Of a stretch of DNA of 64,000 nt, positions 26,004-60,842 are shown in pieces. Numbering within the stretch: position 1 is the first letter of the stretch; every line of letters begins with the position of its first letter. The stretch is from contig MU057375.1 in assembly GCA_013265495.1 (NCBI GenBank), positions 1 to 64,000 on the forward strand. Direction: 5' to 3'. The stretch is from Vicugna vicugna (Eukaryota). The translations under genes were made by a program, and so were the position numbers. The notes under the pieces were generated by a model. It was not told where the DNA came from, did not search any database, and saw only the letters and a list, made by a program, of their open reading frames with translations.

Positions 26004-29000
26004 GAGGAAGGATGGGTTTAAGGATGAAGTGAAAGGATCCAAGAAGAAATGAGTAGAAAGTGAGACTCAGAGGGAGGAAATGGATGAGTGCAGATCTCTA
26101 CAAAAGTCATAACTGTGTAAATCAACAATCAGGGGTTAGTAATAACGCTTACCATGACTAATCAGAAGGCACAAACCTCTATGTTTTAGTGTTGTGTCCT
26201 GGCCACCATACCAGGACTCAGGAAGCCTGAATTGAGGTTGGAAGTTCAGAAAAATACTTATATATTAGTCATTTATATCTATCTATATAAGAAGAATTGT
26301 ACATGCACACCATGAACAAGTGGGAGTTATTCCTGGAATGCAAGAAGGCTTTAACCTAGGAAAATACATCAGTGTAATACACTACACTAACAGTGTGAAA
26401 AGAACCAGGATCGTCTCAATTAATGCAGAGAGAGAAATTTAAGAATTCACCACCATCTTCTGAATTTCATGTAAACATCAGAAATTTAAAGGGTAATATT
26501 CACACAATTTTTTTAACATGACTCTAGCACAACTGGATAACAGTAGTATTTAGACATATCACATCATTGTATATTGCAATATAGCACAATGTAACTTCCT
26601 TCTGTTCCTCTTACTCTGTGTCAGGCTTTTAAAAACATCATCAGAGAAAGGATAACATTCATCAGGGATGGTCATTGCAAAGAAAAACATACTTGTTTTA
26701 TGCCATTGAGTTTAACATTGATTTCAAGGGAAACCACCCATTACAATACTCATACAAAGCTGTTTTTCTCCATGTGGCTACTGATTAATAAATTCAGTCC
26801 CATCATGAAACTTTAGGTCCATAGGATATAATATTCTGATATTGGATCCCCAAGGAAATCGAAAGTGTCTCCTGAGACCTAGAATGGAGAGCCACACAGT
26901 AGGACAATCAAGAGGGCTGAAGTGAGAGCAGATGGTGAGATGTGTCTTGGGACACATCTGGGATCAAGTGGTCCTGGCTGAGGGGCGCTGTGGGAAAGTT
27001 ATCAGGTGTAAAGGGCCTGGCAGATGAGGAAGGTGCCTATTTATGATGACCTCCTGTCAGGACAGCTCCAGGAGAGTCCCCATTACAAATACATTTGCAA
27101 ACCTGTCATATCTTCCCTCCTAAATGTTTTCATTCAGCAATATGAGCACATCCTGTTGGCCAAGTGCTGGGCTACAGATCTGTAATATACTTGAAACCAA
27201 GGTGTAGACTCTGCTCCCAGGTGGCTGAGTGTTCATTATAATATAATACAATACAGGGACTGTTGTTAGTCAGAGGACCAGGTAATTAAAATCATAACCT
27301 ATCCCTCTCCCACAATTTCTATCATCACTATTCATTATTCTGACCCTCATGCTCCTTCAGGATACACAGGATTTTAGCAGAGCTCCCCGGGGGAAAGCAG
27401 ATTCAGTGCTCTGGGGTTAGGACAGTTTGGACCTCACTTTGGATGTGCTGAGCAGATCTTTCCCTTTGAGTGACTCCCAATGAGACCTACTTCCCACCTT
27501 CAAATATCTCCTAGGGATTCAGGGATAATTGCACTGCCCTGTGAGCAAACCAGTTGCTACTCGAATCTACATCACACACACACACACACACATACACACA
27601 CAAAAGGCAACATGATTTAAAAATATATGTACAACATTACAAAGTGTTTTACTTAAATGGATATTTACAGATGATTGAAGTGAGAGAGGAAGGGACAAAG
27701 GTGGACACAGATGAGGGCTGGACACAATTATACATGTCTAGGTGTCACAAGGGAAAACTTCCACTCAGTAGCTCACCTGTATATTTGGAATTGTAGTGTA
27801 TTTACATTAGATCCCAAATGAGATTGAAGAAGAAAAGCAAACCTATATACCTTAAAGAAATCCTTAGTTTATAAAACATGTTCTGATGAAGGCTAAATTG
27901 GAAAGGACCACTTATGATTGGAGCAGAGTGCTTGTCATAAGCAGTTACACACCTCCCTCTGGTGGCCATATGCGGAATGGCATGTGTGATGCTGGCTCCA
28001 TGGATGTCAGACAAACAGGCAACACTCACACATACACGACATCAGACTTGCTGTTAGGAAAAACCAAATCCATAAGATCAAAGTCCTGGGTGTGCCTTCT
28101 AGTCTAAGTCCTTATCTTGCTCATGACATGACCAGGCTCTTCCCAAGGGTCTCAGGGATTGTTGATGGAGCCCCTGAGCTGGGCCCTGGCTCCACAGCAG
28201 AGAACAGAGAGGAGGTTTCTGCCTCACAGGACCTGCAGGGAGAGAGTGGGAACGTGCTGGGGTCACTTGTCCACATCCCAGCCCTGTGTGTCTGGTGCAC
28301 AGAAGTTAGTATATCCAAAGACATGTATGGCCCTTTGCTGTTTATATTAACAATAAAATGTAAATGCAAAATAGAAATGTATCACACAGCATATTTATCT
28401 CAGTTCATCTAAATTTATGTAGAACCTGAAAAAAAATGAGATTACCCTATATTACTGGTTACTTTTTCAATTAACATGAGTCATTACCCTATCCATTGAA
28501 AACTTTAGAAAACATGAATTTCAAAGCTGCATCATGTTCCTTTTGATCCCTTGTCCTTAAAGGACCTGCTTCCATTTTTCCTGCTGCCAGCTTCCTCCAC
28601 AACTATGTCTTGTTTGTCTCTGAAAGCAGAGCTCAATCCTATCCTCCCCAGGCAGCTTCTAAATCTAGGATCTTTCCCTGAACTTCCTGAGCACAAGCCC
28701 TGTCCATTTTCCTATGATGGCAGGCACTTCCCAGCATGTCTTCTCTCCTTCTCCTTCTCTCCTTCTCTCCTTCAGAGCTTCTCCCAGACCAGGAACTTCT
28801 TCAGTCAGTTCTGTCTACTCTCTGTTCAGTGCTTGACTTACAGTAAATACTCAATCAAGATTTAGAAATAATTAATCTAAATAAGTTATGCACTGTTTCT
28901 GGTTCATCCTAAAATTAGAATTAAATCCCAGAAAAGAATCAGGATGTCTTGATGCAAAAGGACTGGCTTGTTGTTTGCAAGGTTTGCAAACCAGGAAGAC

Positions 29001-30251
29001 ACAGCTTTCACCTGTAATTGACAGTATGAACTCAGGGGGTTGACAGGTTGAAGAAATTCTAAAAGCCAAACCACAGAATGTATAGGTAGGTGACTTGTAA
29101 GGGCCTTGGTTGGCTCTTGCAGCCTGACTACAGGACCTCACAGCTGAACCACAGGTATTCCATGACTGGCTGATATAAGAGCATCTCCTGAGGGGTTTTA
29201 CCAGGTGGGGCCCTTAGCAGAATCAGAAGTCTGACAGGTGTTGTTTGCGCTTTTCTGAGAACTCGGGAGTGTGTTACTTAACTCCAGGTCTGTCGTGAGC
29301 TACACAGCATCTCAACCTTCCAAAACCTCCAAGTAGAAAGACGATGTCTGGGGTTCTGTACTGAAGGTGTTTTCTAGGGTTGAATTTGGTTTTACATTCA
29401 GACTTCCATGTGATCAGTTCTAGCCAAGTCCTACAAACCAACACTGAGCCTGTGCTCCTAAGCATCAAGGTCGAGCCTCAGCCCAGGCAGCCCTTCTCCT
29501 GGGTCCTCTGATCTCTCCTTTGCCTGCTCCCAGTTGAATCAGGGGCTTCTATCTTCCCCCCTCCAGGAAGAGCCCAGAATCTCCTCCCTGTGAGGACCTA
29601 TGTTGTGTGCATGGGCACATCCATCTTCAGGCAGAGAAGATAGAGGACGCTAACCATGGCCTCTCTCAGTTACCTCAGACAGTGGGATTCCATGACTGTA
29701 CTTTGATGCACATCAACAGCATCCCACCCCCTCTTTGTGGTCTTGGGGGAAAGGCAGATCTCCATCCCCTGCAGAAGCTGAATGCAAGGATGCCAGTCCT
29801 GGGGGCTGGACCAGGGGCAGGGCAGTGGGTCACTGCTGGGGGAGCCTGAGGGGTGGGAGGGCCTGTGAGCACCTCCCAGGACCCCTGGTCTGAGGCGCAG
29901 AACTTCCTGAAGCTTCTCTGGCACCTGATATGTTTTGGAAAGTCTCTTTCTGTTCATCTGAGCTCAACATCTGAGCTATTGTTGCAAATCAAAATTTCCC
30001 TAGGTGGAACATATCCAGGACCCAGCCTTAATGCGAGGTCCTGCCTTAGTTTTAATTTTTAAAAGTTTAAAATTTTAACCAAAAACCAATGATTATCATC
30101 CTCTTCATTCATTACTCAGCTAGACACAACAGGTCACAAGTATTAGGTTAACACTGTAAAGAATAACCAGGAATTGTAAATTCATAGACACATCAGAAAC
30201 TGGGTGTCCCGGCTCTGAAGGTGAGGGGAAGCAGGAGAGACTGACTGATAC

Positions 30252-30361
30252 TTACAGTGCGTCCCTCTGCTCTGGCTCTGGCTCTGGCGCTGTCGCAGGC
30301 AGGAGAGCTGGAGCTGGCTCTCCATCCAAAGGGGTTTCCCCAGCGGGTTCTGGAGCTGGTG
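30252..30361 (-). CDS. RALGDS-like: Copy A coding exon 6 (truncated Pro/Ala/Glu linker, then stop or donor)
   Basis: ctacag|APAPEPAGETPLDGEPAPALLPATAPEPEPEQRDAL*. The TAA sits inside a GTAAGT donor consensus. Confidence 0.75.
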
Positions 30362-33300
30362 CTGTAGATCCAAGAAGGGAAACTCTCATCAGTAGGACTG
30401 CTTTCCCACAGGTCTCCCAAAGCCAGGGGAGCCCTCACTGCTACTCAATCAAATCTCACTCCAGGATTCCACCCCCAGGGAGTCTTTCCAGCCTCTGCTC
30501 TGTGGGGTCCAGTGCCTTCCCCTCACCACCCACCAGATCCCCCACCCTGCATCCTCCTCACCATCACTGTCTGCCTCTGGGAGTTCGAGTTGCTCCAGCT
30601 GTGCCAGGAGGAGGTGGGCCTGCCGCTCCAGGTCTGAGCCAGGCATGCTCATCTCTATATAAGCGAGCATGTTCTTTAGGCAGGGAAATTCTGGAGACTG
30701 GTGGAAGTCGTCTGGGTACTGGAACAGCCAGGTGCCCAGGATGGAGGACATGGCCCTGGGGGTAGTCAGGGGGACACCAGAGGCTTGGCCTTTCCTTCCC
30801 GGCTGGGCTCCCAGGGTAGCCCTGCAGGGACCTGGGCCTCTTTGCCTCTGGCTGCTGACCATTCAGAGACTGGCTCTGCTCCACGTCCCATCTCACCTGG
30901 CAGTCTGGCCAGAGTTGGGCTTGGACACAGAGAGGGGTCTGCTGCAAGCTTTCTGAAGAGGCAGCCCTTGGTCAGTGGTGTGACTACCTCTACACCTCTT
31001 CAGGGATGACTATCACACTGCTCTTTCCTTCTCCCTGCCCCACTCCCCCCACTGAATGTCACCTCTGTGAGGACAGGCAGGTTATCTGCTCTGGACACTG
31101 CCCTCTCGGGAACACAGGATCTGCTCTACGATTGACCCAGGAGGGAACAGAAGGCTGTGTCTGCCACCCAGGCTTCCTGAAAGGCTCCTCACACCCCAGA
31201 CTTTAGCTGCTGTACCTGCCTGCTTTCTAACCCTCTAGGGACCCTGCCTGAGTCTCCTCCTGCCTCTGGCACTCACCTCCCATAGGATGCCACAGGTGTC
31301 CTCTGAGACTCACTGGGTCCATTGAGCACCAGCTGAGTCCCCACCAGATTGTGAACAGGATGCTCTCCACCCTTGCGTTCTGGGTCCAGGAAGGGTGTCG
31401 GGGTAGGGCTGGGGTGGAGAAGGGATGGCTGTGAGTTCTCTTAGAAGCTGACTCTGTCCAGTGACCTCCCATATGCCCCTCATTGCACCACAGCCCTGTC
31501 CACAGCTCTCTGGGTCTCCTTTCCTCTTATTCAGGGTAAGCCCTAAGACTTCTCTCAAGCCACAATCAGAAGATGTGTGGGACCCAGGATTCTGCCCACC
31601 CCTGCCCATCCAGAAAGCCCACAGCTCCACATAGTCTTTGGGGGAAGGAAGTACATTTCTCTTCAATCAAAGAAACTCACTGTTTCAGCTGGTGCAGGGG
31701 TCCACCGTCCTCATCACTATAAGGGAGGACACATTCGTATCTAAAGGAGACCAGGAAGGTGTCACATAGCCTGTCCTGAGAACACTACCAGGATGTGATA
31801 TCTAGTGTGACAGTGTGACTCCCGGGAGGATGGAAGCCCTGGAGGGCAGGGCTGTTGTCTGCTCGATGCATTAAATGATGGTTATTATTAGAAAAGCACC
31901 TGTCCCTAGGGGACCTTCCTATATATTTGAGTAATGAATGAACCCAACCCACCCCATAGCACAGATCTGAGTGGACCTGGGACAACACTTCTACCTCCCA
32001 AGGATCCCTGCTCTCACTCTTCTAGGACAGGGACAGCTAATGACATCACAAATCCCCTTTGAAATGGGAAACAGTTCCAACCAAGGCCAAAGTCCCAATG
32101 ACACAGGAGGCAGAGGCTTCCTCATGGGCAGGAGGACGATGACCAGTTAGCCCCAAAACAGCCCCTCCAGCTGAACTTTCTGGGAGTCAGGTCCCCAGAA
32201 ATCACTTTGCATGAAGGGCCCACTTTGCTCCTACCCTCCTAGGGCCTGATCCTCTCTTGACCCAGTGTGCAGAGGGGCAAACCGATGCTCAGATAGGTAA
32301 AGTGACAATCCCACATGTCACTGCTAGTAGGTGGCTGAGTCACCAGTGTCCCATGAGGACAGAGTGCTCACCTTTGGAACAGAAGTTCCAGCACCTGCTG
32401 TGCAGTTGTGAAAGCTCTATAGTTGCCCAGGAATGTATGCAAGTAGGAGGGGTAGCCGCCCAGGATGGCAGGAACTAGGTTTGCCACCAGCTTCTCCAGC
32501 CTGTGTTGCTGGAGGCTCCACACCATGTAGTTCTCATCCCTGCTTCCTGATGATACATCTTTCCCCTGGGTTGGAAAGAGGAGAGACAGGAGTCAGAGGC
32601 AGCACTGAGGACCAGCAGGGTGTTGGGGCTGGAGAACAGACTGAAACCCCAAGCCTCAAGGTCTTGTGCCAGTACTGGAACAGGGGAGCCCCGAGCAGAT
32701 TCAATGTTCTCAACATCACCAGTACAAGGGGCAGTGGGTGATGATTAAATGCATTAGTGTCTCAGGACATTGTGTCAGCACCACAGTGCCAGCACCTCCC
32801 TGCATGAACTACACTATCCCTGTGATTGCTGTCACAACATCCCATTCTAGAGATGGGAACACAGAGGCTGATCCTGGGGTGGGAGGGAGCAGGATTGTCA
32901 GGCCAATGTGGACACGTGGAGATGGAAGAAAAACAGGACAATCCATAGAAAAATGCAGAAACATCCTTGACTGAACATGAACTGAAATTCTGTCATAAGT
33001 CTATTTCTAAATTTCTGACTCATTGACTTCACATCTGGCCAAGGCAGGGCCTGGTCTGTGAGGGCAGGTGGGAGAGATGGGGAATCAATTTCCTTTGCCA
33101 GCAATTCTCTAACAGGGAGCCAAGGGGAGGAGTGGGGCAGCTCTGGGACCCAGGGTATCCTGGGTGTGGAGTCCCCTAACTCACACTCACCTTGAGCCCA
33201 TTCTGAGCTCTGTTGTTTTCGTGGGGCACCTGCCCTTCCTGCAGGGAGATGGAGCAGGGGACTCCATGGGCCAGGTCTTGTCCCATGTCCTGTGTGGAGT

Positions 33301-33852
33301 CATGCAAACACAGTGCTCAGCAGCCAGGCAGAAGCCTCAGAGCCCTGTCTGGTTGTATTGACTGGTCCTCAGACCCATAAGACATCTCCCCTTCAGCCAC
33401 ACACAGTCAACCCTCTGCACAGACCTCCATCAGGGGCAAAAAAGCTGACAACCTGAGGGCTTTGGATTCCCACTGGCACAGATAAGAGGCCCCTCAGGAG
33501 TCCTCTTTACCCCCTGCCAGCCCTGTCCTCAGGTGTGGACATGACAGGACCACCAGGTTACCATGTGTTCAATAACCCATTCCTGCCCAAAGGGGACACC
33601 TCCCTTCACATCCCCCTTGCCTCACATGGAGATGTGGGGAATTGGCCGTGCCAAGGGAGGGCTCCCAGAGGTGGCTGGTCCCAGACTGGCCTGCTCCAGG
33701 CCACCCTGTGTTACCTTAGGTGACCTCTGCGTAACACACCAGTGGCATCGGGATTGAGGGTTCAACCAACGCTTACAGATTCTCAGAAATGTCTCACTCC
33801 AGGGTTTTCTGAAGGAGAAGTCCCAGGAGGTTGTGAAAAAGGAGGAGAACAT
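30252..33852 (-). CDS. RALGDS-like: RALGDS-like REM-domain-only protein, copy A (six coding exons, 268 aa if all are used)
   Basis: Exons 33715-33852, 33191-33301, 32372-32565, 31681-31740, 30562-30755 and 30252-30361 sum to 807 nt with no stop or frameshift. Exons 2-5 match the recalled RALGDS N-terminus. The exon-2 acceptor is AT instead of AG. Expression is unproven. Confidence 0.75.
30562..30755 (-). CDS. RALGDS-like: Copy A coding exon 5 (REM domain)
   Basis: cccag|AMSSILGTWLFQYPDDFHQSPEFPCLKNMLAYIEMSMPGSDLERQAHLLLAQLEQLELPEADSD|gtgagg resembles RALGDS AISSILGTWLDQYSEDFCQPPDFPCLKQLVAYVQLNMPGSDLERRAHLLLAQLE. Confidence 0.92.
31681..31740 (-). CDS. RALGDS-like: Copy A coding exon 4
   Basis: tttag|YECVLPYSDEDGGPLHQLK|gtgagt resembles RALGDS YGCILPYSDEDGGPQDQLK. 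Confidence 0.9.
32372..32565 (-). CDS. RALGDS-like: Copy A coding exon 3 (REM domain)
   Basis: cccag|GKDVSSGSRDENYMVWSLQQHRLEKLVANLVPAILGGYPSYLHTFLGNYRAFTTAQQVLELLFQR|gtgagc resembles RALGDS AGTLEKLVEHLVPAFQGSDLSYVTIFLCTYRAFTTTQQVLDLLFKR. Confidence 0.9.
33191..33301 (-). CDS. RALGDS-like: Copy A coding exon 2
   Basis: DSTQDMGQDLAHGVPCSISLQEGQVPHENNRAQNGLK resembles RALGDS SSTQEIGEELINGVIYSISLRKVQLHHGGNKGQRWLG. Donor gtgagt; acceptor tttgcat (mutated). Confidence 0.75.
33715..33852 (-). CDS. RALGDS-like: Copy A coding exon 1
   Basis: cacag|agaaacATG...aag|gtaaca; MFSSFFTTSWDFSFRKPWSETFLRICKRWLNPQSRCHWCVTQRSPK; 138 nt, also open in copy B. Confidence 0.72.
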
Positions 33853-36800
33853 GTTTCTCTGTGAAATGTCTCCAGCCAAGTGAGCTGGCTCTGGGGCCAT
33901 CACTAGAATGTGGGTGTCTGGTAACCAGGTTCCATTTCTGTTTGGGTCTGCTAAGGAAGTGATGTCACTTCCTGGGGTCCACTTCTTTGAAACCCTTCCT
34001 CAGACAACATCTCCACACACAGCCCTCTGGGCTGCTATCTGCTCACCCTCTTCTCCATGCAAACCCACATCTTCCACAGTTACAGCTATCCTGCCCTCGC
34101 AACAGCTCCCGGGGATAGTCTGTGTGCAGCTGTGAGGAGACGACCTGTCTTCCAGACTCAACTCCTCATCCTTACCTGTTCTCCATCTTGGATTTATCCT
34201 GGTGTTTCTCCAGGATAGTCTCCTCATCTGCACAGTAGAGGTGATTCTAGCTCGTACTTCTAGGGATGTCCTTAGGTACATGTGGGATAAGACCTGAAAA
34301 GTGTGGGAGTGGTGACACTTGTAGATGATGCCTCCAACCTGTGTTTTTTTTGTCTTATTACCACTCTCACATCTGTTCCTCTTCTGATCCCACCATATAG
34401 TTCTTAATGTCACTGTGCACCTGTGTCTATGTGTTTGTGTTTTTGTGTGTGTAATTGTCCACATGTGTAAGCCAGGGGTCACTCTCTGTGTGGCCAGCAG
34501 AAAACTGCCCTCACATGGGAGGGTTGGGCAAGAGCTTCCTGGTCTGAGTGTTTCTTAATTTCAAAGCAAATCTGAGGAAAGGGGTTCAAGCCTTGGCCAG
34601 CAGGTCAGAGCAACGTGACCCCAGGCCATTCAGGCAGCAGGGGCTGGAGCTGGGATCACAGACTCACACAGTCTGGTTCCACTGTCCACACTCAGAAGCA
34701 CAGTGCTGGGGGCAGGGAGACTGTCCCCTTCATGGGCACACAGCCAGGCAGGATCACCTTCTCTGGTTGGACACACAGTGGTCCAGGGACAGACGGGCAG
34801 TTGAAGGGTTGCTGTCACCAGAGAGATTTGACAGTCTCATTTGGTGTTCCCTCTATGTTCCTGTCCTCACATGCCTCTCCCCAAGTTCCAGCTCCAGTAT
34901 AAACGGTCACCTTCCCCAGGAATAATAGGATTTTTATCTGCTGGAGTAAGAAGACCCTCAGCTTCCATGGAAAATCCCCAGGAACCATTTTCTCCCTGTG
35001 ATTTCATGAGGAAAATATATCAGATTTGATCTAATCTCATAAGTATCCGAGGTTCAGTTGGCCCCAAGCTGCCTTCTGGAACTTACTTCCCATCCCTCCC
35101 CCATCCATGCAGCAGCTCCATCTCCCCACATGCTCAAACCAGAACCTGGGGCTCTGTCTGCTCCTTCTTTCTTCCTCACCCCACATGCAGTCTGCTCCTC
35201 CCCTGTCCCTGGGTCCCAACTCCAAATGCATTCACCACTACTCTGTATCTCCCTCCCTCTCCTGTCCAGGCCACCACTGACACTTTCCTGGATTCATGCT
35301 CTTTGCTTCCCTTTCTCACTTTTTCTGGCCTAAGGGAAGGATCTTTAAAAGACAAATCTGTTCTGTCACTCTGCTAACACACAGGATATCTCTCACAGGC
35401 ACTTTGGGAAAAGCCCCAATCCTAGCCAAGTCCTCAGAAGCATCCCCAGGAGGTAGCACCTTCATCCTTTGGGTTTACACAGTGCTAAAATGCCGTGATA
35501 CCCAGACAGAATAAATCAATCAAAATTTCATTTCATTACTGCATGAAAGAAATTTACAGGGAAGAAAAACTGCACATGTAGATGGGCATGTCCGTGAACT
35601 GGGTGATATGATTCATTAGGGGTTGTGTCTAAGTGGGTACCAGGGTCTGGGGAAGGAGTTATCTGCCAGGTGAACAAGGGCTCAAGGCAAATGCAAGTCC
35701 CCTAATCCCTGCCGCTGGGAAAGGGGGGATTCAGCTTGAAGAGGCTTTACCTGATGTAGGATGGGATGATTTGGGAAGGGCTTAGCCTCTCACATTCATT
35801 TCACAGAGTGTCTGGGGTCTCCACTTTGTAGCTCTTACCTCAGTAGGAATGGTGACACTTGGGTATCCCATCACCGAAGTGGAGCAGATGTGAGTCTGCG
35901 GTCCAGTGAGACCTGGGACCACACCTCACTTGTGGACACCTGAATCCCCATCCCTCATGAGGGCAGAAGATATGCCACTGGCACAGAGTGTGGTGTGCAG
36001 AGTCAGGGTGGGTAAGCCTCCTGTGAGCTCCCTGGTGGCCAAGGGGACAAAGGCTTCACCCTTCAGTCTTGACTCTATTGGGAATCAGTGGCCCTCCGGC
36101 TAAAACTTGATGCCAACTAAAGACATAATGGCTTACATGTCTCTAGCTGCCCAAGGCCACTTTAGGCCCTTGCTCTGTAGATGTCTGAAAAGTAGTGAAC
36201 TGGCCTCAGCTTTCTTCCACCTGGACCCTTCTGGGAAATTCCATCCTGGCCCCTCCACCGACTCCTCCTTCACATCTTGCGCTCCTCCCCTCTGTGTTTC
36301 TATATGTGCTTCTACCTCCACACTTTACCTTTTGCTATTTTCTCAGTTTGAGATGTGCGCTTTCTTCCTTGACTCAGCTCATGGGCTCACCTCAGCCCAT
36401 GTGGCACCCACTGCAGGGACCTACTGCAGCAGATGGCAGGGGCAGGGAGGCCTCTGGGCAGTGGTGGGAAGGGAAAGGGGCCCCTGTGGTGCTCCACATC
36501 CTGGGTGTAGAGCCTTGGCAGTGACTGATCAGGGTGTGAAATCCTGAGTTTTGCTCTGGAAAAAGATAGCCTGGGGTTTGGTTTCCTGCTTCTTGGTCTT
36601 CCCTGGAGGAATTGGGAGCTCCCTCAGTGCAAAAAGGCCAGAGTCACAAAAGGGCCAAGTGCAAAAAGACCCACGGGCTGGGGAGAGAATGGAGAAGCCT
36701 CCCCAGGCCTTGTAGTGGGGAAGCAGGGATCCCAACATGTAAACTGGAAAGGGACTGGGGCAGCCTTTGGGCTCCAGAGAGATTAATCAGGGAAGAGGTT

Positions 36801-39800
36801 TTCAAACTTTGGACTCAGCAGCTGAACCCATTCCTTGCATACAACAGACTTAGAGCACTCAAGTTCAAGCCTGAGGGAAGTGGGGTGGGGCTAGAGCCCT
36901 GGGAGCCAGGACCTCCTCTGAAAAACACCCTGGATCCAGGCTGAGGGACACTCACACCTGGAGGACCACTGCTCTAGGAGGAAGCTGGGACACAGGCTGC
37001 CCCAGGAGGCCTGGGACTGAGATGACAGCTCAGGGTTCTTCCCGGTAATGAAACCCTCCTTCTTTTTGCTCACCTTTGGTATTTTGTAATGCCTTTGTGC
37101 AAACTCTGGCCTGCCTGTTCTGCCCTTCAGAGAGGCCTACAGAAAGGATTGATGTTGCTGGATTCTATGGGGCCAAAGGGAGCCCTGGATGTCAGCATGA
37201 GAGCCACAGGTCAACTTGAGCTGGCATTTGGTCCTGCCACCTAACCTGTCAGGGAGGCCTGGGTCAAGGGACCAGATCTCTGAATTTACAGACTGTTTTT
37301 TTTTTTTTGCGGTGGAAGCAACTTCTCACACAGGTAACATTTCAGACTATCCTGGTTTTAAGCAGACTGCACTCTCTGAATAGGGCCCCAGTTTCCTGAT
37401 AATAGAATGGGGATAAAGAGAGGCCCCTGCCCTGCAGAAAGGGGGTGCTCCTGTCTGGGGAGGATACACTGTGTGTGATTTCCTTCCTCTTAATTGTCTG
37501 TGGGATGTGGCTCCAGCAAATGGAAGCCTCCTTACCTGGGTTGCGAGGCATGGGCTGCTACCCAGTGCCATTGGCAATGAAGTAGAAAGAGTAGCTGGGA
37601 GGCAGGGTGTGGCCAGGGGTTTAGGGACAACCATTGGGTCCTACCTTGGAGGATACGGTAAGATGGGTGCAGGGAGGGAACCTTCAGTTTCACTTGCCCA
37701 AACCCCTAGGTGGAGAAAAGCCAAAGAATAGAAGTCTCAAATAATGGAATGAGGGCTGAAAAAGATTGCCAGCCTGGGAAATTGAAAAGTAAAAACCCAT
37801 GAGGCTAACCAGAGTAATAATAAAGCAAAAAATACAGTAATATAAAAAGAGGTGAAATCAAATAAATACATGCTGAGAAACAGTAAAAATGAGATGAAAG
37901 AAGTTGGCAAGAAGGGGTAAGGAAGTCAAAGTAAAGATGGACAATTAATGTACAACAGAAGACCAAAGACAGTGACTGAGGGAAAGGATGAAATAAGAAA
38001 TTAATGAAAAAAATGTTTAAGAAAAACTCAGTCGGTTAAGAGAGGAAAATAGCAGTGGGGTTTTCTGAGCTCAGATTCTGGCAGATGTGGGTTCTTTGGA
38101 GCCACTGTGTAGAGCCCAGCTTGAAAGTGATACAGGGCATACAGCTTATAATATGCTGGCTGACCTCTCCCTGGGGGATTGATCTCAGTACTTGAGTACA
38201 GGAGAGTTCCCATTTCAAATACATTCCCAAACCTGTCACGTCGTGCTTCCCAAAAGTATTGATTCAGCAAAAGAAGCAGTTTTTCTTGGCCAAGTGCTGG
38301 GCTAGAGACCTGTAATATTCTCAAAACCAAGGCATAGACTTTGCTCTGAGGTGGCTCGGCATTCGTTATAGTACAATACAGGGAAAGCAGTTGTAGTTAG
38401 ATGACCAGGTAATTAAAATCATAACCTGTCCTTCTCCCACATTTCATATAATCACTGTTCATTATTCTGACCCTTTAGGATACACAGGATTTTAGCAGAG
38501 CTTACCAGGGGAAAGTAGACCCAGTACTCTGGGGATAGGAGAGAGTGTGGACTCAGCTTGGCTGTGCTGAGCAGGAGACCTTTCCCTTTGAGTGACTCCC
38601 ACTGAGACCTACTTCCCCTCTTCAATTGTCTCCTAGGGATTCTGGGGCGATCCTGCTATCCTGTGAGCAAATCATTTTCTACCCAAATCTACATTACACA
38701 CACAAAAGACAACATGATTTAAAATATCTCTACTACATTACATTGATTGTAAAAGTGTTTTATTTGAATAGATATATATGGACAGTTGGAAGGAGGCAGG
38801 AAGGGACAGAGCTGGACACAGATGGGGGCTGGACACAGAATTATAAATGTCTAGGTGTCACAAGGGAAAACTTGCACTCAGTGTCTCACCTTATATTTGT
38901 GACTTATAGTGTATTTACATTAGCTTCCAAGAGGGATTGAAGAAGAAGAGCAAATCTATATACCTTAAAGAAATTCTCAGTTTATAAAACGTTCTGATGA
39001 AGGCTAAATTGGAAGGACCATATTTAAATGGAGCAGAATGTTTGTCATAAGCAGTTACACATCCCCCTCTGATGGCTGTATGAGGAATGGCATGTGTGTT
39101 GCTGGCCCCATGGATCTGTCAGACAAACAGGTAACTTTCACACACACATCAGTCTTGCTTCTAGAAGAAAACAAATTCTATAAGATCAGAAGTTGAGGGT
39201 TGCCTTCTATTTGAATTCCTCCTCTTGATCATGGCATGGCCGGGCACTTCCCAAGGGCAGGGTCTCTGAGTGTTGATGGAGCCCCTGACTCAGGCCCTGT
39301 GTTCACAGCAGAGAACAGAGAGGAGGTTGCTGCCTCACGGGAACTGCACAGAGAGGGTGGGAATGTGCTGTGGTCACTTGTTCACATCCAGCCCTGTGTG
39401 GTTGGTGCAGAGAAGTTATTATAGCCAAACAAAGACATGTATGACACTTTGATGTTTATATTAACAATAAAACATAAAAGCAAATAAGAAGTCTATCACG
39501 CAGCATATTTATTTCAGTTCATCTAAATTTATGTAGAACTTGAAAAAAATGAGATCACCATATATTACCAGGCACTTTTCCACTTCACATGAGTCATTAC
39601 CGTATCCATTGAAAACTTTAGAAAACATGAATTTCAAAGCTGCATAATGTTCTTTCTGATCCTTTGTCCTTAAAGGACCTTCTTCTATTGCTCCTGCTGC
39701 CAGCTTCTTCCACAACCATGTCTTGTTTGTGTCTGATAGTGGAGTCCAATCCTGTAATACCCAGGCAGCTTCTAAATCTAGGATCACTTCCTGAACTTCC

Positions 39801-41103
39801 TGAGCACGATCCTTATCCTTTTCTCCTAGGATGGCAGGCATCTCCCACCATGTCTTCTCTCTTTCTGTCCATTCAGAGCTTCTCCCAGACCAGGAAGCTC
39901 TTTAATCAGTTCTCAGGCTGCTCTCTGCTCAGTGCTTGATGTATAGTAAATACTCAGTAAAGATTCGGAAACAGTAAATCTAAATGAGTTGCACATTACT
40001 TCTGATGTCATCCTAAAATCAGAATTAAATACTGGAAAAGAATCAGATGTCTTGAAGCAAAAGAACTAGTTTATTGTTTGCAAGGTTTGCAAACCAAAAA
40101 CAAAAGCCTTGGCTTATAACTGAAAGTATGTATCCAGCGGGTTGATGGGTTGAAGGATTTTTAAAAGCAAAACCTCAGAATATATAGGTGAGAGATTTGT
40201 AGGAGGATTGGAAAGCCCTTGCAGCCTAACTGCAGGTCCTCAAAGTTGGACCACAAGTTTTCTATGATTGGCTGACGTGGAAGCAGCTCCTTAGCGGTTT
40301 TACCAGGTGGGACCCTTAGCAGAATCAGAAGTCCTTAGAGTTTTTGTTTGTGGTTTTCGAAGACCTCGGGAATATGTTACTGAAGCCCAGTTCTGTGATG
40401 AGCTATATAGTATCTCAAGCTTCCAAAACCTCCAAGTGGCCAATAGACGTCTGGGGCTCTGTACTGGAGGTGTTTTCTGGAGATGAATTTGGTTTTGTGA
40501 TCAGATTTTGATGTGCTCATTTCTGGTCACATCCTAATAACCCACACAGAGCCTGTGCTCCTGAGTATCATGGGAGAGGCTCAGCCCAGGCAGCCCATCC
40601 CCTGGGTCCTCTGATCTCTGCTTCACCTGCTCCCAGTTTACTCAAGGACTTCCTCCTCCAGGAAGAGCTCAGAATTTCCTCCCTGTGAGGACCTATGTTC
40701 TTCTGTGCATCGGGGGCTCAATCTCTAAGCAGAGAAGAGAGAGGTCGCTAACTGTGGCCTCACTCAGTTGCCTCAGACCATGGAATCCTCTGGCCTTACT
40801 TTGATGGGCATCATGGCTCCTCCTTCCTCCTCATTTGTGGTTTTGAGCAAAAAGCAGAGCTCCTTCCCTTGCAGAACCTGAATGACATGTCCTAGGGGCT
40901 GTACCAAGGGTGCAGCAGTGGGTGTCTGCTGAGGGAGCCTGATGGGTGCTTGGCCCTGTGAGCACTTCCCAGGCACCCTGACTTCCTGCAGCTTCTCAGG
41001 CACCTGATATGTTTTAAGACTCTTTCTGCTCATATGAGCTCAAGTGGGTGCCGCTTTTGCAATTTGAAATTCGCCTGGATGGAACACATCCAGAGCCCTG
41101 CCT

Positions 41104-41826
41104 TTTTTATTTATGTATTTAGTTTAAGTACAGTCAGTTACAGTGTGTCAATTTCTGGTGTACAGCACAATGTCCCAGTCATGTGTATATATACATATAT
41201 TCATTTTCATATTCTTTTTCATAAAAGTTATAAGAAAATATTGAACATCATTCCCTGTGCTATACAGCAGAAATTTTTTTAAAAATCTATTTTTTTTATC
41301 TAATGACTAACATTTGTAAATCTCAAACTCCCAAATTTAACCTTTCCCACCAACTTTCCCCAGTAACCATAAGATTGTTTACAATATCTGCAAGTCTGTT
41401 TCTGTTTTATAGATGAGTTCATGGTGTCATTTCCTGTCACTCCTTTTTTTAGATTCCACATATGAGTGTTACCATATGGTATTTTTCTCTTTCTGGCTTA
41501 CTTCACTTAGAATGACAGTCTCTAGGTCCATCTATGTTGATGAAAATGGCTTTATTTTATTCTGTTTTATACTTGAGTAGTACTCTGTTGTATAACTATA
41601 CCACAGCTTCTTTATCCAGTCATCTGTCCATAGACATTTAGGTTGTTTCCATGGCTTGGTGTGCATGTATCTTTTCGAAATAGAGTTCCTCTGGATATAT
41701 TGTGGGATTGCTGGATCATACAGTAAATCTATGTTTAGGTCTTTGTTTTTTTCCTTAGTAATCTCCATATGGTTTTCCATAATTGCTGCCCCAAACTACA
41801 TTCCCACCAGCAGTGTAGGAGGATTC
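41104..41826 (-). mobile_element. L1 3' fragment inserted in unit B only
   Basis: Minus-strand KPWKQPKCLWTDDWIKKLWYSYTTEYYSSIK plus 3' UTR. Absent at the matching unit-A position (~30027). Confidence 0.92.
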
Positions 41827-42065
41827 TAGGGATTTGCCTGTAACTTGATGACATCCCTTATTTTTAATTTTTAAAAAATTTTTAACTTTAAACCAAAACA
41901 CAATGATAATCAATGTTCTCATATATTAGTCAGCCAGACACAACAGGTCACAAGTAACATGTTATCACCTCAGAATAATCAGGAATTGTAAGTTCACAGA
42001 CATATCAAGAACAGTAGGTGTCCCAGCCCTGAAGGCAACGGGAGGCAGCAGAGCCTGAATGATAC

Positions 42066-45000
42066 TTACAGCACGTTGCTCTGCTCTGGCTCTGGCGCTG
42101 TCGCAGGCAGGAGAGCTGGAGCTGGCTCTCCATCCAGAGGGGTTTCCCCAGTGGGTTGTGGAGTTCACGCTGTAGCTCCAAGAAGGGAAACTCGCATCAT
42201 TAGGACTGTTTTCCTACATGTCTCCGAAAGACAAGAAAGCTGTCACTGCCAATCAATAAACTCAGTCCAAGATTTCACCCCTAGGAAGTCTTCCCAGGCT
42301 GTTCTCCAGGGGATGAATGTTCTGAGCCTCATCATTGCTCCTGGCCATTTCCAACTCCAAGAGGCTCTGCTCTGTGTGGGCCAGTTCCTTCCCCTCCCCA
42401 CTCACCCCATCACCCACCCTGCATCCTCCTCACCATCACCCTCTGCTTCCCAAAACCCCAGATGCTCCAGCTCTGCCAGGAGAAAGTGGACCCAGTGCTT
42501 CAGATCTGAGCCAGGTATGTTCAGCTCTAAGTAAGTGAGCACAGTCTTTAGGCAGGTAAATTCTGACAGCTTATGGAAATCCTCTGGTTACTGGAGCAAC
42601 CAGGTGCCCAGGATGGAGATCATGGCCCTGGGGGTAGTCAGGAGGACACCAGAGTCAGAGACCTGGCCTTGCCTAACACAAGGAGCTCCCAGAGTAGCCC
42701 AGCAGGGAACTGGGCCAATTAGTCTGTAGCTACTCTCTATCTAGAGGGTGGTTCTGCTCCACATCTCATCTCACCATACAGTCTGGGTAGAGGCGGGCCT
42801 GAATACAGAGGAGGGGCTGCTACAAGCCTTCTGAAGGGACAACCCTTGGTCAGTGGTGTGACCACCTCTCTACCTCTTCAGGGACACCTGTCAAACTGTT
42901 CTGTCCCTCTCCTTGCCCCTCCCTACTGGATGACACCTTTGTGAGGACAGGCAGGCTGTCTGCTCTGGGCACTGCCCTCTCGGGAACACAGGAGCTGCTC
43001 TATAAGTGTCTGACCTAGGAGGGAATAGGCTGTGTCTGCCACCCAGGCTTCCCCTGGACCTCCTCACACCTGAGGCTTTAGCTCCTGCACCTGTCTGCTG
43101 ACTAATCCTCCAGGGACCCTGCTTGGATCTCGTCCTGCCCCTGTCGCTCACCTCCCACAGGGTGGGCTCATGAATCCCCTGAGGCTCCCTGGGTCCCCTG
43201 AGCACCAGCTGGTCCTCACCATTGAGAATCCACCAGATGGTGAGCAGGATGCCTGCCTCTGCCCACCTACAGAGCCTACAGCTTCACACAGTATTTAGGG
43301 GAGTCCTTCCCTCTTCAATTAAAGAGACTCACTGTTTCAGCTGTTCCAGGGATCCACCGTCCTCATCACTATAAAGGAGGACACATCCATATCTAAAGGA
43401 GACAAGGAAGGCATCACAAGGACTGTCCTGAGAACACTACCTGGATGTGATGTTGTCTGTGACAGTGTGACTCCTGGGAGAAAGGAAGACCTGGAAGGCA
43501 GGGTTATTGTCTGCTCTATGCATCAAATTATGGTTGTTATTAGAAAAGCACCTGTCCAAAGGACCCTTCCTATATATTTGAGGAATGAATAAGCCCAACC
43601 TACCCCATCATACAGATCTGAATTGGCCTGGGACCACACTTCTCCCTCCCAGGGATCCCTGCTGTCACTCTCCTAGGACTGAGACAACTAATGGAATCAC
43701 CCAACCCCTTTGAAATGGGAAAACACTTCCAACCAAAGCCAAAGTGCCAGTGACACAGGAGGCAGAGGCTTCCTCATGGGCAGGAGGACAATGACCATTT
43801 AGCCCAAAAACAACCCTTCCAGCTGACCTTTCCAGGAGTCAGGTCCCCAGAAAGCACTTTCCATGAAGGACCCACTCTTTCCTTACTCTCCTAGGGCCTG
43901 ATTCTCTCTTGACCCCTGTGTGCAGAGGGATAAACTGAGGCTCAGAGAGGTACAGTGATAATCCCACATGTGACTGCTAGTAAGTGGCTGAGTCACCAAT
44001 GTCCCATGAGGACACAGTGCTCACCTTTGGAACAGAAGCTCCAAGAATAGCTGGGTGATGGTGAAATCTCTTTAGTTGTCGAAGAATGTGTGCAAGTAGG
44101 AGGTGTTGCCGCCCACGACAACAGGCACCAAGTTTGCCACCGGCTTCTCCAGCCTTTGTTGCTTGAGGCTCCACACCCTGTAGGTCTCATCCTTGCTCCC
44201 TCATGGTCCAGCTCCCCCCTGGGGTGGAAAGAGGACAGACATGAGTCATAGGGAGCACCGGGGACCCCCAGGGGGTTGGGGCTGGAGCTCAGGCCGAATC
44301 CTCAAGCCTCACGGTCTTGTGCCTGAGGTGGAATATAGGAGCCCTGAGCAGATTCAAGGTTCTCAGCATCACCAGTAAAAGAGGCTGTGGGCTATGATGA
44401 AATGCATTAGTGTCTCAGATCATTGTGTCAGCACCGCAGTGACAGCAGCTCCCAGAATGAACTACCTCATCCCTGTGACTGCTGTCACAACATCCCATTC
44501 TAGAGATGAGAATACAGAGGCTGATGCCGGGGTGGGAGGGATCAGGATTGTCAGGCCAATGTGGACGCATGGGTATATAGGAGAAACAGGATAATCTGTA
44601 GAAAAATGCAGAAACACCCTTGACTGAACATGAACTGAAATTCTGTCAAATCTTTCTGAGGTTCTGACTCATATGTAGTCATTGACTTTGCATCTGGCCA
44701 AGGCAGGGCCTGGGCTGTGAGGGCAAATGGGGGAGATGGGGAATCAGAATTATTTGCCAGCAGGTCTCTAAGAGGGAGCCCAGGGGAGAAGCTGGGCAGC
44801 TCTGGGACCTGGGGCTTCCTTGGTGTGGCGTCTCCTCGCTCGCACTCACCCTGAGCCCATCCTGGGCTCTGCTGGTGTTGTGGGGCACCTGACCCTCCTG
44901 CAGGGAGATCATCACGGAACTCCATGGACAAGGGCCTGTCCCATCTCCTGTGTGGAGTCCTGCAAACACAGTGCCCCACAGCCAGGCAGAAACCTGAGAG

Positions 45001-45516
45001 CCCTGTCTGGCTGTTTTCACTGGTTCTCAGACCCATGAGACATCTCCAGTCCAGACACACACACACACACACAACCCTCTGCACAAACCTCCACCAAGTC
45101 CAAAAAAGCTGATAACCTGAGGGCCTTGGATTTCCATTGGTACAGATAAGAGACCCCTCAAGAGTTCTCCTTCCCCTCTGCCATCTCTGTCCTCGGGTGT
45201 GGCCATGACAGGACCACCAGGTTACCACGTGTTCAATAACCCATTCCTGCCCAAAGGGGACAACACCCCTCACGTCCTCCTACACCGAGATGGAGATGAG
45301 GGGAAGTGGGCCTGCCCTGGGAGGGCTCCCAGAGGAGACTGGGCCAGAACTGGCCTGCTCCAGGGTACCCTGTGTTACCTTAGTTGACTTCCTCATAATA
45401 GACCAGAGATGTTGGGGTTGAGGGTTCAACCAATGCCTACAGCCTCTCAGAAACCTCTCATTCCAGGGTTTCCTGAAAGAGAAGCCCCAGGAGTTCATGA
45501 AACAGAAAGAGAACAT
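42066..45516 (-). pseudogene. RALGDS-like: RALGDS-like copy B pseudogene
   Basis: Exons 45379-45516 (open), 44850-44959 (TGA plus 1-nt deletion), 44025-44218 (two stops), 43333-43392 (open), 42434-42627 (TAA) and 42070-42169 (TGA). All of these splice sites are canonical GT-AG. Confidence 0.9.
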
Positions 45517-48500
45517 GTTTCTCTGTGAACTGTCTCCAGCCAAGTGAGCTGGCTCTGGGGCCGTCACTAGAATGTGGGTGCCTGGTAACCAGGTTCCATT
45601 TCTGTTGGGGTCTGTTGTCAAGGAAGAGACATCACTTCCTGGGGCCCACTTCCTTGAACACTGTCCTCAGACAACACCCCTACACACAGCCCTATGGGCT
45701 GATGTCTACTCACCCCCTTCTCCATGTAAACCCACATCTTCCACAGTTACAGTAGCCCTGACCTCTCCGCTGCTCCCAGGGAGGGTCTGCATGCAGCTGT
45801 GAGGAGATGACCTGGCTTCCAGTCTCAAATCCTCATTCTTACCTGTTCTCCACCCTGGATTTATCCTGGTGTTTCTCCAGGATGGTCTCCCCTTCTGCAC
45901 AATAGGGGTGATTCTAGCTCGTACTTCTAAGGATGTCCTCAGGAGCATGTGGGATAAGATCTGAAAAGTATGAGACTGGCGACACTTGTAGGTGATGCCT
46001 CCAACCCATGTTTTTTGTCTTATTGCCACCCTTAACATCTGTTCCTCTCCTGATCCCACCCCATAGTCCTTATTTAATGTCACTGTGCAAGTGTGTCTGT
46101 ATGTTTGTGTTTGTGTGTTGTGATTGTCCACACGTGTAAGCCAGTGCTCACTGTGTGGCTAGTAGAAAAGTGCCCTCACAAAGGAGGGTTGGGCAAGAGC
46201 TTCCTGAGGTCTGAGGGCTTCTAATTTCCAAAGCAAACCTGATGAAAGGGGATCAAGACTTTCCTAGCAGGTACGACCACCATGACTCCAGGCCATACAG
46301 GTAGCAGGGGCTGGGGCTGGGATCACAGACTCACATAGTCTGGTTCCACTGTCCACACTCAGAACCACAGTGTTGGGGGCAGGGAGGCTGTCCCCTTCAT
46401 GGGCACACAGCCTGGCAGAGTCATCTTCTTTGGCTGGAAACACAGTGCTGCATGGACAGATGGACAGTTGAAGAGTTGCTGTCACCAGAGAGATTTGACA
46501 ACCTCATATGGTGCTGCCTCTATGTTCCTGTCCTCACATGCCTCTCCCCAAGTTCCAGCTCCAGTATAAACAGTCACTTCTCCAGGAAAAATTGGATTTT
46601 TTTCCACAGAAGTACGAAAACCCTCAGCCTCGGTGGTAATTTGCTGGGAATCATTTTTTCCCTGTGATTTCATGAGGAAAATGTATCAGATTTGATCTTA
46701 CCTCCTAAGTGTCTAAGACTCATTTGGCCCCAGGCTGCCTTCTGGAACTATCTTTCCACCCCTCTTCCATCCAAGAAGCAGCTCCATCTCCCCAGGCTCA
46801 AACCAGAACCTGGGGCTCTTTCTGCTCCATTTCTTCCTCACCCCACATGCAGTCAGCTCCTCCCCTGTCCCTGGGTCCCAACTACAAATGCATTCATCAC
46901 CTCTCTGTATCTCCCTCCCCCTCCTGTCCAGGCCACCACTGACACTGTCCTGGATTCATGCCCTTTGCTTCCCTTTCTCACTCCCTCTGTCCCAAAGGAT
47001 GAATGCTTGTAAGAGAAATCTGTTCCTGTCACTCTGCTAACACAAAGAAATCTCTCAGAGGCACTTTGGGAAAAACCCCAATCCTAGCCAAGTCATCAGA
47101 AGCGTCCCCAGGAGGTAGCACCTTCCTCCTTTCAGTTTACACAGTGCTAAAATGCTGTGATACTCAGACAGATTAAATCAATCAAAATTTCATTTCATTG
47201 CCACATAACAGAAGAGGTTTGCAGGCAAGAAAAACTGCTCATGGAAACGGGTGTGTCCATGAACAGGGTGATCTGATTCGTTAAGGGTTGTGTCTAGCTG
47301 GACGTCTGAGTCTGGGGAAGGAGTTATCTTCCAGGTGAGCAAGCACTCCAGGCAAATGCAGGTCCCCTAATCCCTGACTCTGTGAAAGTGGGGGTTCAGC
47401 TCTGAGAGGTTGCAGGCAAAGCTGTACCTAACATAGGATGGGATGCGGTGGGAATGGCTGAGCCTCTCACAGTCATTTCACAGAGTGTCTGGGGTCTCCA
47501 CTTTGTAGCTCTTACCTCAGGAGGAATGGTGACACTTGGGTATCCCATCACCAAAGTGGAGTGGACGTGATCTGGGGTCCAGTGAGACCTGGGACTGCAC
47601 CTCACTTGTGGATCCCTGAAGCCCCATCCCTCATGAGGGCAGAAGATACACCACTGGCACAGAGTGTGGTGTGCAGGGTCAGGGTGTGTAAGACTCCTGT
47701 GAGCTCCCTTGTGGCCAAGGGGACAAAGGCTTCACCCCTCAGTCTTGACTCTATTGTGAATCAGTGGCTCTCTGGCTAAAACATGATGCCAACTAAAGAC
47801 ATAATGGCTTAAATGTCTCTGGCTGCCCAAGGCCACTTTAGGCCCCTGCTCTTAGAGACATGTCTGCAAAGTAGTCAACTGGCCTCAGCATTCTCCCACC
47901 AGGATCCTTCTGGGAAATTCCATCCTGGCCCCTTCACCAACTCCTCCTTCACATCTTGCGCTCCTCCCCTCTGTGTTTCTATATGTGCTTCTACCTCCAC
48001 ACTTTACCTTTTGCTATTTTCTCAGTTTGAGATGTGCGCTTTCTTCCTTGACTCAGCTCATGGGCTCATCTTAGCCCGTGTGGCACCCACTGCAGGGACC
48101 TACTGCAGCAGACGGCAGGGGAGGGAAGGCCTCTGGGAAGTGGTGGGGAGGACAAGGGGGCCTCTGTGGTGCTCCACATCCTGGATGTACAGCCTTGGCA
48201 GTGACTGATCAGGGTGTGAAATCCTGAGTTTTGCTCTGGAAAAAGATAGCCTGGGGTTTGGTTTCCTGCTTCTTGGTCCTTCCTGGGGGAATTGGGAGCT
48301 CCCTCAGTGCAAAATGGCCTTAGTTGCAGGTCCTAGGGACCGAGGAAAGAAAGGAGAAGCCTCCTCAGGCCTTATCGTGGGGAAGCAGGGATCCCAACAT
48401 GTAAACTGGGAAGGGCCTGAAGCCAGCTTTTGGGCTCTGGAGAGATTCATCAGGTCAGAGGTTTTCAAACTTTAGACTCTCAGCAGTAGAACCCTTTCCT

Positions 48501-49216
48501 TGCACACAAGGGGTTCAAACCTGAGGGAAGTGTGGTGGGGCTAGAGCCCTGGAAGCTAGGACCTCCTCTGAAGAACATCCTGGATCCAGGCTGGGAGACA
48601 CACACACCTGGAGGATCACTACTCTAGGAGGAAGTTGGGAAACAGGCCGCCCCAGGAGGCCTGGGACTGAGATGACAGCTCAGGTTCTTCCTGGTTATGG
48701 AACCCTCCTTCTTTTTGTTCACCTTTGGTATTTTGTAATGTCTCTCTGCAAACTCTGGCCTGCCTTTTCTGCCCTTCACAGGAGCCTATGAAAATAATGG
48801 ACCTTGCTGGACTCCATGGGGCCAAGGGGAGCCCTGGATGTTAGCATGAGAGCCTCAGGTGGGCTTGAGCTGGCATTTGGTCCTGTCACCTACCATGTCA
48901 GGGAGGTCTGGGTCAGGGGACCAGATTTCTGAGTTTCTAGATTGTTTTTTGCAGAAGAAGCAACTTCTCACACAGGTAACATTTCAGATTATCCTGGTTC
49001 TAAGCAGGCTGAACACTCTGAATTGGGCCCCAGTTTCCTGACAATACAGTGGGGATAAAGGGAGATCCCTGCCTTGCAGAAAGGGGGTATTCCTGTCTAG
49101 GGAGTATACACTGTGTGTGATTTCCTTCCTCCTCATTGGCCTGTGGTGCGTGGCTCCAACAAATGGAAGCCTCCTTACCTGGCTGCCAGGCATGGGCCCC
49201 TGTACTGTGCCACTGG

Positions 49217-60442: not shown

Positions 60443-60842
60443 ATAGAAAAGCAGCAGGATGCTATAGAAATGAGAAACTCACAACTGGAAAGGTGTTAAC
60501 TAATGAATTACAAATAAAATAAACATGAAATTATAAAAGAAGACATGCAAATCATTGAGAGTGGGAGAGGGAGGCAGGGAAATATAGAAGATTTTTTTTC
60601 TTTCTTTTAAAAAATTTTTTATCGGTAGGATGGTTTTGAGATCATGTTACTATCAGTTTAATAAAAACAGTTATAGTAATGGGCTAATAGATTTACGAAA
60701 AAGGGTAACCACAAGCCAAAACTTACAAGGGAGTCACAAAAATTAAAATCCATGATAATACAAAGGAAAATTACCAAACCACAAAAGGAAGAAGAAAGGG
60801 ACAAAGAGGAAATACCAAATCAACAGCAGAAATAAGTTCAAA

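What the first reader, a model, noticed from the sequence alone, without database searches (positions are those of the whole stretch)
30252..33852. Hidden, apparently intact gene for a catalytically empty (REM-only) RalGDS paralogue
Seen: six exons join into an 807-nt open frame (268 aa) that the ORF track cannot show. It consists of a novel exon 1, the REM domain and 36 aa of Pro/Ala/Glu linker, then a stop. I found no CDC25-start motif (VAEQFTLMDAELF type) or RA domain downstream in the unit. Known: RALGDS is REM-CDC25-RA, and RALGDS-like gene expansions are annotated in several laurasiatherian genomes with little functional data. Inference: staying open while its sister copy gained five stops and a frameshift suggests constraint. 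A REM-only product cannot act as a GEF and could be a decoy, scaffold or germline-specific protein.
Basis: partly seen in the sequence, partly recalled or inferred. Interest (0 to 1): 0.75.

Follow-up and report, generated by a model that had tools for sequence, protein, structure and literature searches.

The report
Truncated RalGDS-like gene, multi-copy family
This is one still-readable copy of a many-copy mammalian gene family that kept only the non-catalytic front end of a signalling enzyme; databases already list the family, although what it does seems unstudied.

Summary
The open, REM-only gene is real, but the model needs three corrections. (1) The 'stop' lies inside a GTAAGT splice donor. 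A seventh exon (28232-28121) follows, as in RefSeq camelid paralogues, giving 903 nt / 300 aa. (2) The 807-nt model uses an exon-2 acceptor that is dead in this copy (CAG>CAT); an in-frame AG 12 nt on, or skipping, keeps the frame. (3) Exon 1 is not novel: 27 of the 150 best database representatives carry this leader, in carnivores, horses, rodents, rabbit, elephant and tamandua. No CDC25 or RA remnant occurs in the 64 kb. Past constraint is supported: neutral survival is 0.001-0.005, and 32 of 33 family-conserved REM positions are kept, against 24 in the dead neighbour. Present function is unproven: no RNA test was possible, and the acceptor, poly(A) signal, promoter CRE and leader cysteine are all altered. 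Verdict: a new, possibly eroding member of a pipeline-annotated but apparently unstudied placental family. It is most likely a non-catalytic germ-cell REM adaptor or decoy (inferred).

The parts
33955..33972 (-). Palindromic ETS/CRE-like promoter element about 100 nt upstream of the ATG; the CRE CpG is deaminated (CA here, TG in the neighbour, so an ancestral TGACGTCA is inferred)
   Evidence: 2 matches in the window, 0 in 100 shuffles (pattern taken from this site, so only the second match is informative)
33898..33900 (-). In-frame upstream ATG (would add 16 aa); the neighbour has ACG here
33715..33852 (-). Exon 1 (46 aa): family leader, basic and aromatic; this copy lacks the Cys at position 4/5 typical of the family
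   Evidence: (leader HMM E 6.8e-17)
33302..33304 (-). Ancestral exon-2 acceptor, mutated to CAT (CAG in the neighbour); this is the acceptor the 807-nt model needs
   Evidence: zero-mismatch contigs over 33058-33468 in runs X1 and X3
33191..33289 (-). Exon 2 from the next in-frame AG; homologous to the pre-REM exon of RALGDS; phase 0-0, so skipping keeps the frame
32372..32565 (-). Exon 3: first half of REM (RasGEF_N)
31681..31740 (-). Exon 4: REM
30562..30755 (-). Exon 5: second half of REM
30256..30361 (-). Exon 6: Pro/Ala/Glu linker
30250..30255 (-).
   Evidence: same donor in the neighbour
28121..28232 (-).
   Evidence: tblastn 77% to P0003; RefSeq paralogues splice here
27648..27653 (-). 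Poly(A) signal variant AGTAAA (AATAAA at the aligned site of the neighbour), followed by a GU-rich stretch
27069..38197 (.). Tandem unit A, holding the open gene
38199..50385 (.). Tandem unit B: pseudogene copy (exons 45516-45379, 44959-44850, 44218-44025, 43392-43333, 42627-42434, 42169-42070, exon 7 from 39343) with 5 stops and a 1-nt deletion in exon 2

Best explanation
A seven-exon member of a placental-wide, tandemly amplified family that derives from the 5' half of RALGDS placed behind a separate promoter and leader exon. Shown: open frame, intact REM, no CDC25 or RA, purifying selection on REM along its lineage. Inferred: transcription in male germ cells from an ETS/CRE promoter. The product is leader + folded REM + disordered Pro/acidic tail. 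It cannot exchange nucleotide and most likely works as a membrane-associated non-catalytic adaptor or decoy, offering a free REM surface to partners of RalGDS-type GEFs. In the family the leader probably tethers by S-acylation plus basic residues. This copy has lost the N-terminal Cys and carries weakened cis signals, so it may be a weak or eroding member.
For: Open 903-nt frame with GT-AG introns. RefSeq camelid full-length models have the same exon junctions, 69-73% identical. No CDC25 or RA in 64 kb. Neutral survival 0.0007-0.005 at about half of the A-B divergence, with 5.4-8 lesions expected against 6 seen in B. In REM plus tail, 14 changes are unique to A against 36 to B (p=0.003). REM end branch 0.093 against 0.27. 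32 of 33 conserved positions kept. AlphaFold of paralogue P0013: residues about 91-230 mostly pLDDT>90, flanks mostly <55; best fold matches are Rlf/RGL2 (weak E 0.026). Germline hints are indirect: a hamster member is named after RIKEN 4930596D02 (testis origin of that clone series is recalled), and human CDRT15L2 is among genes down in Sertoli-cell-only testis (PMC10406544, one passage; its link to this family rests on one rabbit protein name and recall).
Against: No transcript evidence for this copy. No orthologue among database proteins (best 73-77%), although many camelid paralogues are annotated. Copy-specific lesions: exon-2 acceptor, AATAAA>AGTAAA, leader Cys, new upstream ATG; the CRE CpG is lost in both copies. 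Leader plus exon 2 show more changes in A than in dead B (14 against 6, p=0.12; heterogeneity against REM+tail p=0.002). Pairwise dN 0.185 equals intron divergence 0.184-0.19, and dN/dS is 0.70. An open frame survives with p 0.23-0.48 if the gene died within the last 1-2% of divergence. No partner and no membrane anchoring were tested.
Confidence: 0.55

Rival explanations
1. A recently silenced or decaying copy: it was constrained until lately and is now a young pseudogene that has not yet collected a stop.
For: Dead ancestral acceptor, variant poly(A) signal, altered CRE, lost leader Cys. Faster change in leader and exon 2. Not found among annotated proteins. Survival p 0.23-0.48 for recent death. 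The family shows presence/absence variation in rat strains (PMC13477028 Table 3).
Against: Each lesion has an in-frame or known-variant rescue. REM is almost fully conserved (32 of 33). None of the 11 exonic variants listed from two further DNA samples makes a stop and no exonic indel is listed, though coverage is fragmentary and mixed with paralogues.
Confidence: 0.3
2. The first reader's six-exon form, ending at the TAA after exon 6, is the main product.
For: The TAA is in frame; two fetched models (P0002, P0007) end at that point.
Against: The TAA is inside a consensus donor kept in both copies. Exon 7 has a strong acceptor, an open frame and a downstream poly(A) site. RefSeq models P0013, P0159, P0162, P0164, P0167 and P0003 splice on to it.
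Confidence: 0.07
3. A split GEF: the free REM docks in trans on a CDC25 domain, either completing a CDC25-only paralogue such as RGL4 or displacing the REM of RALGDS.
For: All 33 family-conserved REM positions equal the RALGDS residue (that alignment includes several near-RALGDS rows). REM and CDC25 form one catalytic core (PMC3762125 passages).
Against: RGL4 is listed as absent from mouse and rat (PMC3141262 passages), yet rodents have the REM-only family. The conserved positions may simply be fold core.
Confidence: 0.12
4. The 5' part of a longer gene whose CDC25 exons lie further downstream.
For: Some relatives keep CDC25 (tamandua P0152 with leader; manatee P0056, beaver P0052).
Against: No CDC25 or RA trace in the 27 kb downstream (a 946-nt N gap at 10608-11553 is unread). 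Exon 7 ends in a stop with a poly(A) site. All 10 camelid hits lack RasGEF.
Confidence: 0.03

Closest known systems
[quoted passage not shown]
   Same: Same leader, same seven-exon junctions, REM only, Pro-rich tail; 69-73% identity over nearly the full length.
   Different: A divergent paralogue in a two-unit array, with a dead ancestral exon-2 acceptor and no Cys at leader position 4/5; not found as an annotated protein.
Placental leader+REM proteins (horse 63-member cluster, cat, ferret, fox, hedgehog, reindeer, rabbit, guinea pig, hamster 4930596D02Rik-type, mole-rat, tree shrew, elephant; rat Ralgdsl genes by name only)
   Same: Leader + RasGEF_N without CDC25 in 26 of the 150 best representatives; multi-copy.
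   Different: Tails vary; 3 of 27 leader-bearing representatives end in a hydrophobic segment, this one does not.
RALGDS (REM-CDC25-RA)
   Same: Exons 2-5 are homologous (40-68% identity to mouse-type RALGDS P0024), with the REM fold.
   Different: Different first exon; no CDC25 and no RA, so no Ral exchange and no RA-type Ras-GTP effector binding.
RGL4/Rgr and CDRT15/CDRT15L2
   Same: Mammal-specific RALGDS derivatives (recalled). One rabbit protein named 'CMT1A duplicated region transcript 15 protein-like' carries the same leader and a partial REM.
   Different: RGL4 keeps CDC25 (recalled). The human CDRT15 proteins could not be fetched, so their sharing the leader is recalled, not tested.

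Membership tests
RalGDS-family GEFs | REM (RasGEF_N) domain | tested here: met
RalGDS-family GEFs | CDC25 (RasGEF) catalytic domain | tested here: not met
   best E 1.7 over six frames of the window
RalGDS-family GEFs | C-terminal RA domain | tested here: not met
   best E 1.8
Placental leader+REM-only RALGDS-like family (pipeline-annotated) | Basic/aromatic leader exon in front of RALGDS exon 2 | tested here: met
   (E 6.8e-17; HMM built from 64 fetched leaders, camelid ones among them, window copies not included)
Placental leader+REM-only RALGDS-like family (pipeline-annotated) | Cys at leader position 4 or 5 (usual, not universal) | tested here: not met
   22 of 23 pattern-selected representatives have it (the pattern favoured Cys at position 5)
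Placental leader+REM-only RALGDS-like family (pipeline-annotated) | REM followed by a Pro/acidic tail and stop, no CDC25 | tested here: met
Placental leader+REM-only RALGDS-like family (pipeline-annotated) | Nested among family members in a REM tree | tested here: met
   inside a 13-row clade of camelid-type sequences, SH-aLRT 96 (quick tree)
Placental leader+REM-only RALGDS-like family (pipeline-annotated) | Tandem multi-copy arrangement | tested here: met
Functional protein-coding gene | Spliced transcript | tested here: inconclusive
   0 reads in 2 RNA runs, which the tool marks as no test
CDRT15 family | Homology to human CDRT15/CDRT15L2 | tested here: inconclusive
   searches returned no CDRT15; only the rabbit name

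The most novel reading that the evidence does not exclude
The locus belongs to an undescribed placental-wide family of free, membrane-tethered REM domains. The family arose by putting RALGDS behind a germline ETS/CRE promoter and lipidated leader, lost CDC25 repeatedly, and was amplified separately in many lineages. Its members would tune Ral/Ras signalling in trans in spermatids, and the amplification could reflect conflict among haploid gametes, as with the small-GTPase regulators of the mouse t-haplotype (recalled analogy).
Probability: 0.15. Interest if true: 0.7.

Novelty: new member of a known kind. Interest (0 to 1): 0.35.

Why it matters
The single locus matters little: it adds one apparently unannotated, divergent camelid paralogue. 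The family matters more. REM is normally treated as a structural part of a GEF core, yet here it is kept alone under purifying selection and amplified in many placental lineages. Eight literature searches (CC-licensed PMC and bioRxiv only, listings read, mostly top 10-40) showed no study of the family. If a free REM has partners, that is a testable new regulatory role in germ cells.

Tried and rejected
Whole genome not held, so no paralogue or orthologue DNA and no branch dN/dS. RNA: no RNA holder listed; 2 of the 6 listed RNA-type runs were laid and gave 0 reads, no test. Word-index search with exon 1 found nothing; this was a sensitivity limit, since HMMER-derived relatives carry the leader. 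Complex prediction of family REM with the RALGDS CDC25 region: no answer, score 0.00, no evidence either way. Human CDRT15 link: 7 of 7 hits were felid proteins; Atlas search of the leader gave no usable hit. Flanking genes: 147 of 148 flanking ORFs had no Pfam family and one had a sub-cutoff DUF809 hit, so synteny is unresolved. A weak tblastn hit at 14930-14682 (E 4e-4, filters off) has no DNA-level support and was rejected as a third copy. A candidate exon at 29769-29672 was dropped: its acceptor and donor are both changed in the neighbour. No paper tied TGACATCA to CREM in spermatids. The careful tree did not finish; the quick tree was used. Read depth (single contigs 11-26, summed bins up to about 1600) suggests many paralogues, but the tool states it is no copy number. 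Paper supplements were not consulted; expression tables there could bear on tissue specificity.

Full report
Setting. Self-comparison shows a head-to-tail duplication: unit A 27069-38197 and unit B 38199-50385, 79-85% identical. Each holds a minus-strand RALGDS-derived gene, and nothing else in the window matches the coding sequence. All ten hits of an exon-3 search are camelid proteins. No whole genome was available.

Observation check. Exons lie at 33852-33715, 33289-33191, 32565-32372, 31740-31681, 30755-30562 and from 30361. With GT-AG introns the six-exon form is 795 nt / 264 aa. The lesion is not fatal: the next AG is in frame, and skipping exon 2 gives an open 267-aa form. Six of the nine RefSeq camelid models in the alignment (P0013, P0159, P0162, P0164, P0167, P0003) splice at this junction in the same frame; P0005, P0009 and P0165 end differently. 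A poly(A) site follows at 27653 (AGTAAA; AATAAA in B). B carries five stops and a 1-nt deletion.

No catalytic domain. HMMs for CDC25 (28 fetched sequences) and RA (15) give nothing better than E 1.7 in six frames of the whole window, while the REM HMM finds exons 3-5 of both copies. Tblastn with eight CDC25-bearing proteins hits only exons 2-5 at E<0.1. The REM-only reading holds.

The family. A profile search found 683 representatives. Of the best 150, home-built HMMs class 26 as leader+REM without CDC25, 1 as leader+REM+CDC25, 88 as REM without leader or CDC25 (many look like partial models), 19 as REM+CDC25 and 16 as REM+CDC25+RA. I looked up names for 30 of them. Leader-bearing ones come from alpaca and camel, cat, ferret, fox, horse (a 63-member cluster), hedgehog, reindeer, hamster, field mouse, guinea pig, mole-rat, rabbit, tree shrew, elephant and tamandua; two are unnamed. 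Exon 1 is therefore an old family leader. The ESM Atlas likewise returns RasGEF_N-only chordate clusters of 108-192 members. Rat has a gene numbered Ralgdsl11, absent from several strains (PMC13477028, passages and part 1 of section 9). One earlier scan note reports a decayed copy elsewhere in this genome (a lead only). No orthologue of copy A was found: the best identity is 73-77%. In the quick REM tree, CDC25-bearing and CDC25-less rows are interleaved (at least 5 changes forced by well-supported branches). This hints at repeated loss but is confounded by partial gene models.

Constraint. Pairwise dN is 0.185, dS 0.265 and intron divergence 0.184-0.19, which on its own is unimpressive. But a neutral simulation at about half of the A-B divergence expects 5.4-8 lesions and gives survival of 0.0007-0.005; B has six. 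Polarised against six camelid paralogues, REM plus tail has 14 changes unique to A against 36 unique to B (p=0.003). Leader plus exon 2 has 14 against 6 (p=0.12; heterogeneity p=0.002; 24 ambiguous columns left out). A keeps 32 of 33 family-conserved REM positions, B 24. A and B fall in different camelid subgroups (support 80 and 93), so B is not a strict sister. The frame would survive with p 0.23-0.48 if death came in the last 1-2% of divergence, so present function is not shown. The copy-specific changes in acceptor, poly(A) signal, leader Cys and upstream ATG all fall outside REM and fit either erosion or remodelling of the N-terminus.

Mechanism. AlphaFold of the alpaca paralogue P0013 gives a confident helical REM (about residues 91-230) between low-confidence flanks. 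The nearest solved relative by sequence and by fold is Rlf/RGL2. REM and CDC25 form the catalytic core of RasGEFs, and in SOS the REM region holds an allosteric Ras site (PMC3762125, passages). A free REM cannot exchange nucleotide, and the simplest retained function is protein binding. The leader is basic and aromatic, usually with Cys at position 4 or 5 (22 of 23 pattern-selected representatives). It resembles N-terminal S-acylation signals such as that of GAP-43 (recalled), and 3 of 27 members end in a hydrophobic segment. I infer a membrane-associated adaptor or decoy; copy A lacks that Cys. About 100 nt upstream of the ATG lies a palindrome that matches the overlapping ETS-CRE motif (PMC4555227, abstract start and one passage) with the CpG deaminated on opposite strands in A and B. 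That bin has the highest (X1) or second-highest (X3) summed contig depth, suggesting it is shared by many copies. CRE-driven spermatid expression is my inference from recalled CREM biology. Support is indirect: the hamster 4930596D02 name and CDRT15L2 being down in germ-cell-free testis (PMC10406544, one passage). PMC10403009 was searched for four terms and gave nothing. A split-GEF role with RGL4 is weakened by RGL4 being listed as absent in rodents (PMC3141262, passages).

Verdict. Real and open, REM-only, seven exons. It is a new and possibly eroding member of a family that pipelines already annotate, and for which eight searches showed no dedicated study. Interest 0.35: low for the locus, moderate for the family.

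Noticed in passing
window 34125-34068 (-): Sequence matching the N-terminus of database model P0061, a possible alternative upstream exon; its ATG is present in unit B and absent in unit A.
   Followed up: partly
protein P0026 (spotted hyena): A leader-like N-terminus joined to a REM almost identical to RALGDS (end branch 0.018); it was not picked by my leader HMM. It may mean that the leader exon sits near RALGDS itself or that the family is re-seeded from RALGDS.
   Followed up: no
protein P0001 (C. ferus): A gene model fuses an RA-domain protein (looks like RASSF4, recalled) to this family, suggesting that one camelid cluster lies next to that gene; the RA part has no match in the window.
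   Followed up: partly
proteins P0050, P0059, P0152: C-terminal hydrophobic, possibly membrane-spanning tails in cat, a carnivore-type and tamandua members; P0246 (clouded leopard) has the leader and no listed Pfam domain.
   Followed up: no
window 49217-49750 and 52606-53131: A 530-nt insertion in unit B with an inverted 81% copy nearby; a dispersed repeat, type not tested.
   Followed up: no
window 41105-41855; 7214-9231; 23250-26003; 59700-64000: LINE-1-like fragments (recognised from recall), one inserted in intron 6 of unit B.
   Followed up: no
window 14682-14972 (-): A short Cys-containing open stretch with a weak protein-level match to family members, no DNA or Pfam support.
   Followed up: yes
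window 10608-11553: A 946-nt assembly gap beside a GC-rich stretch.
   Followed up: no
window 27700-27899 and 35900-36700: Non-coding stretches more alike between units A and B (91-94%) than the introns are (78-88%); possible regulatory elements or gene conversion.
   Followed up: no
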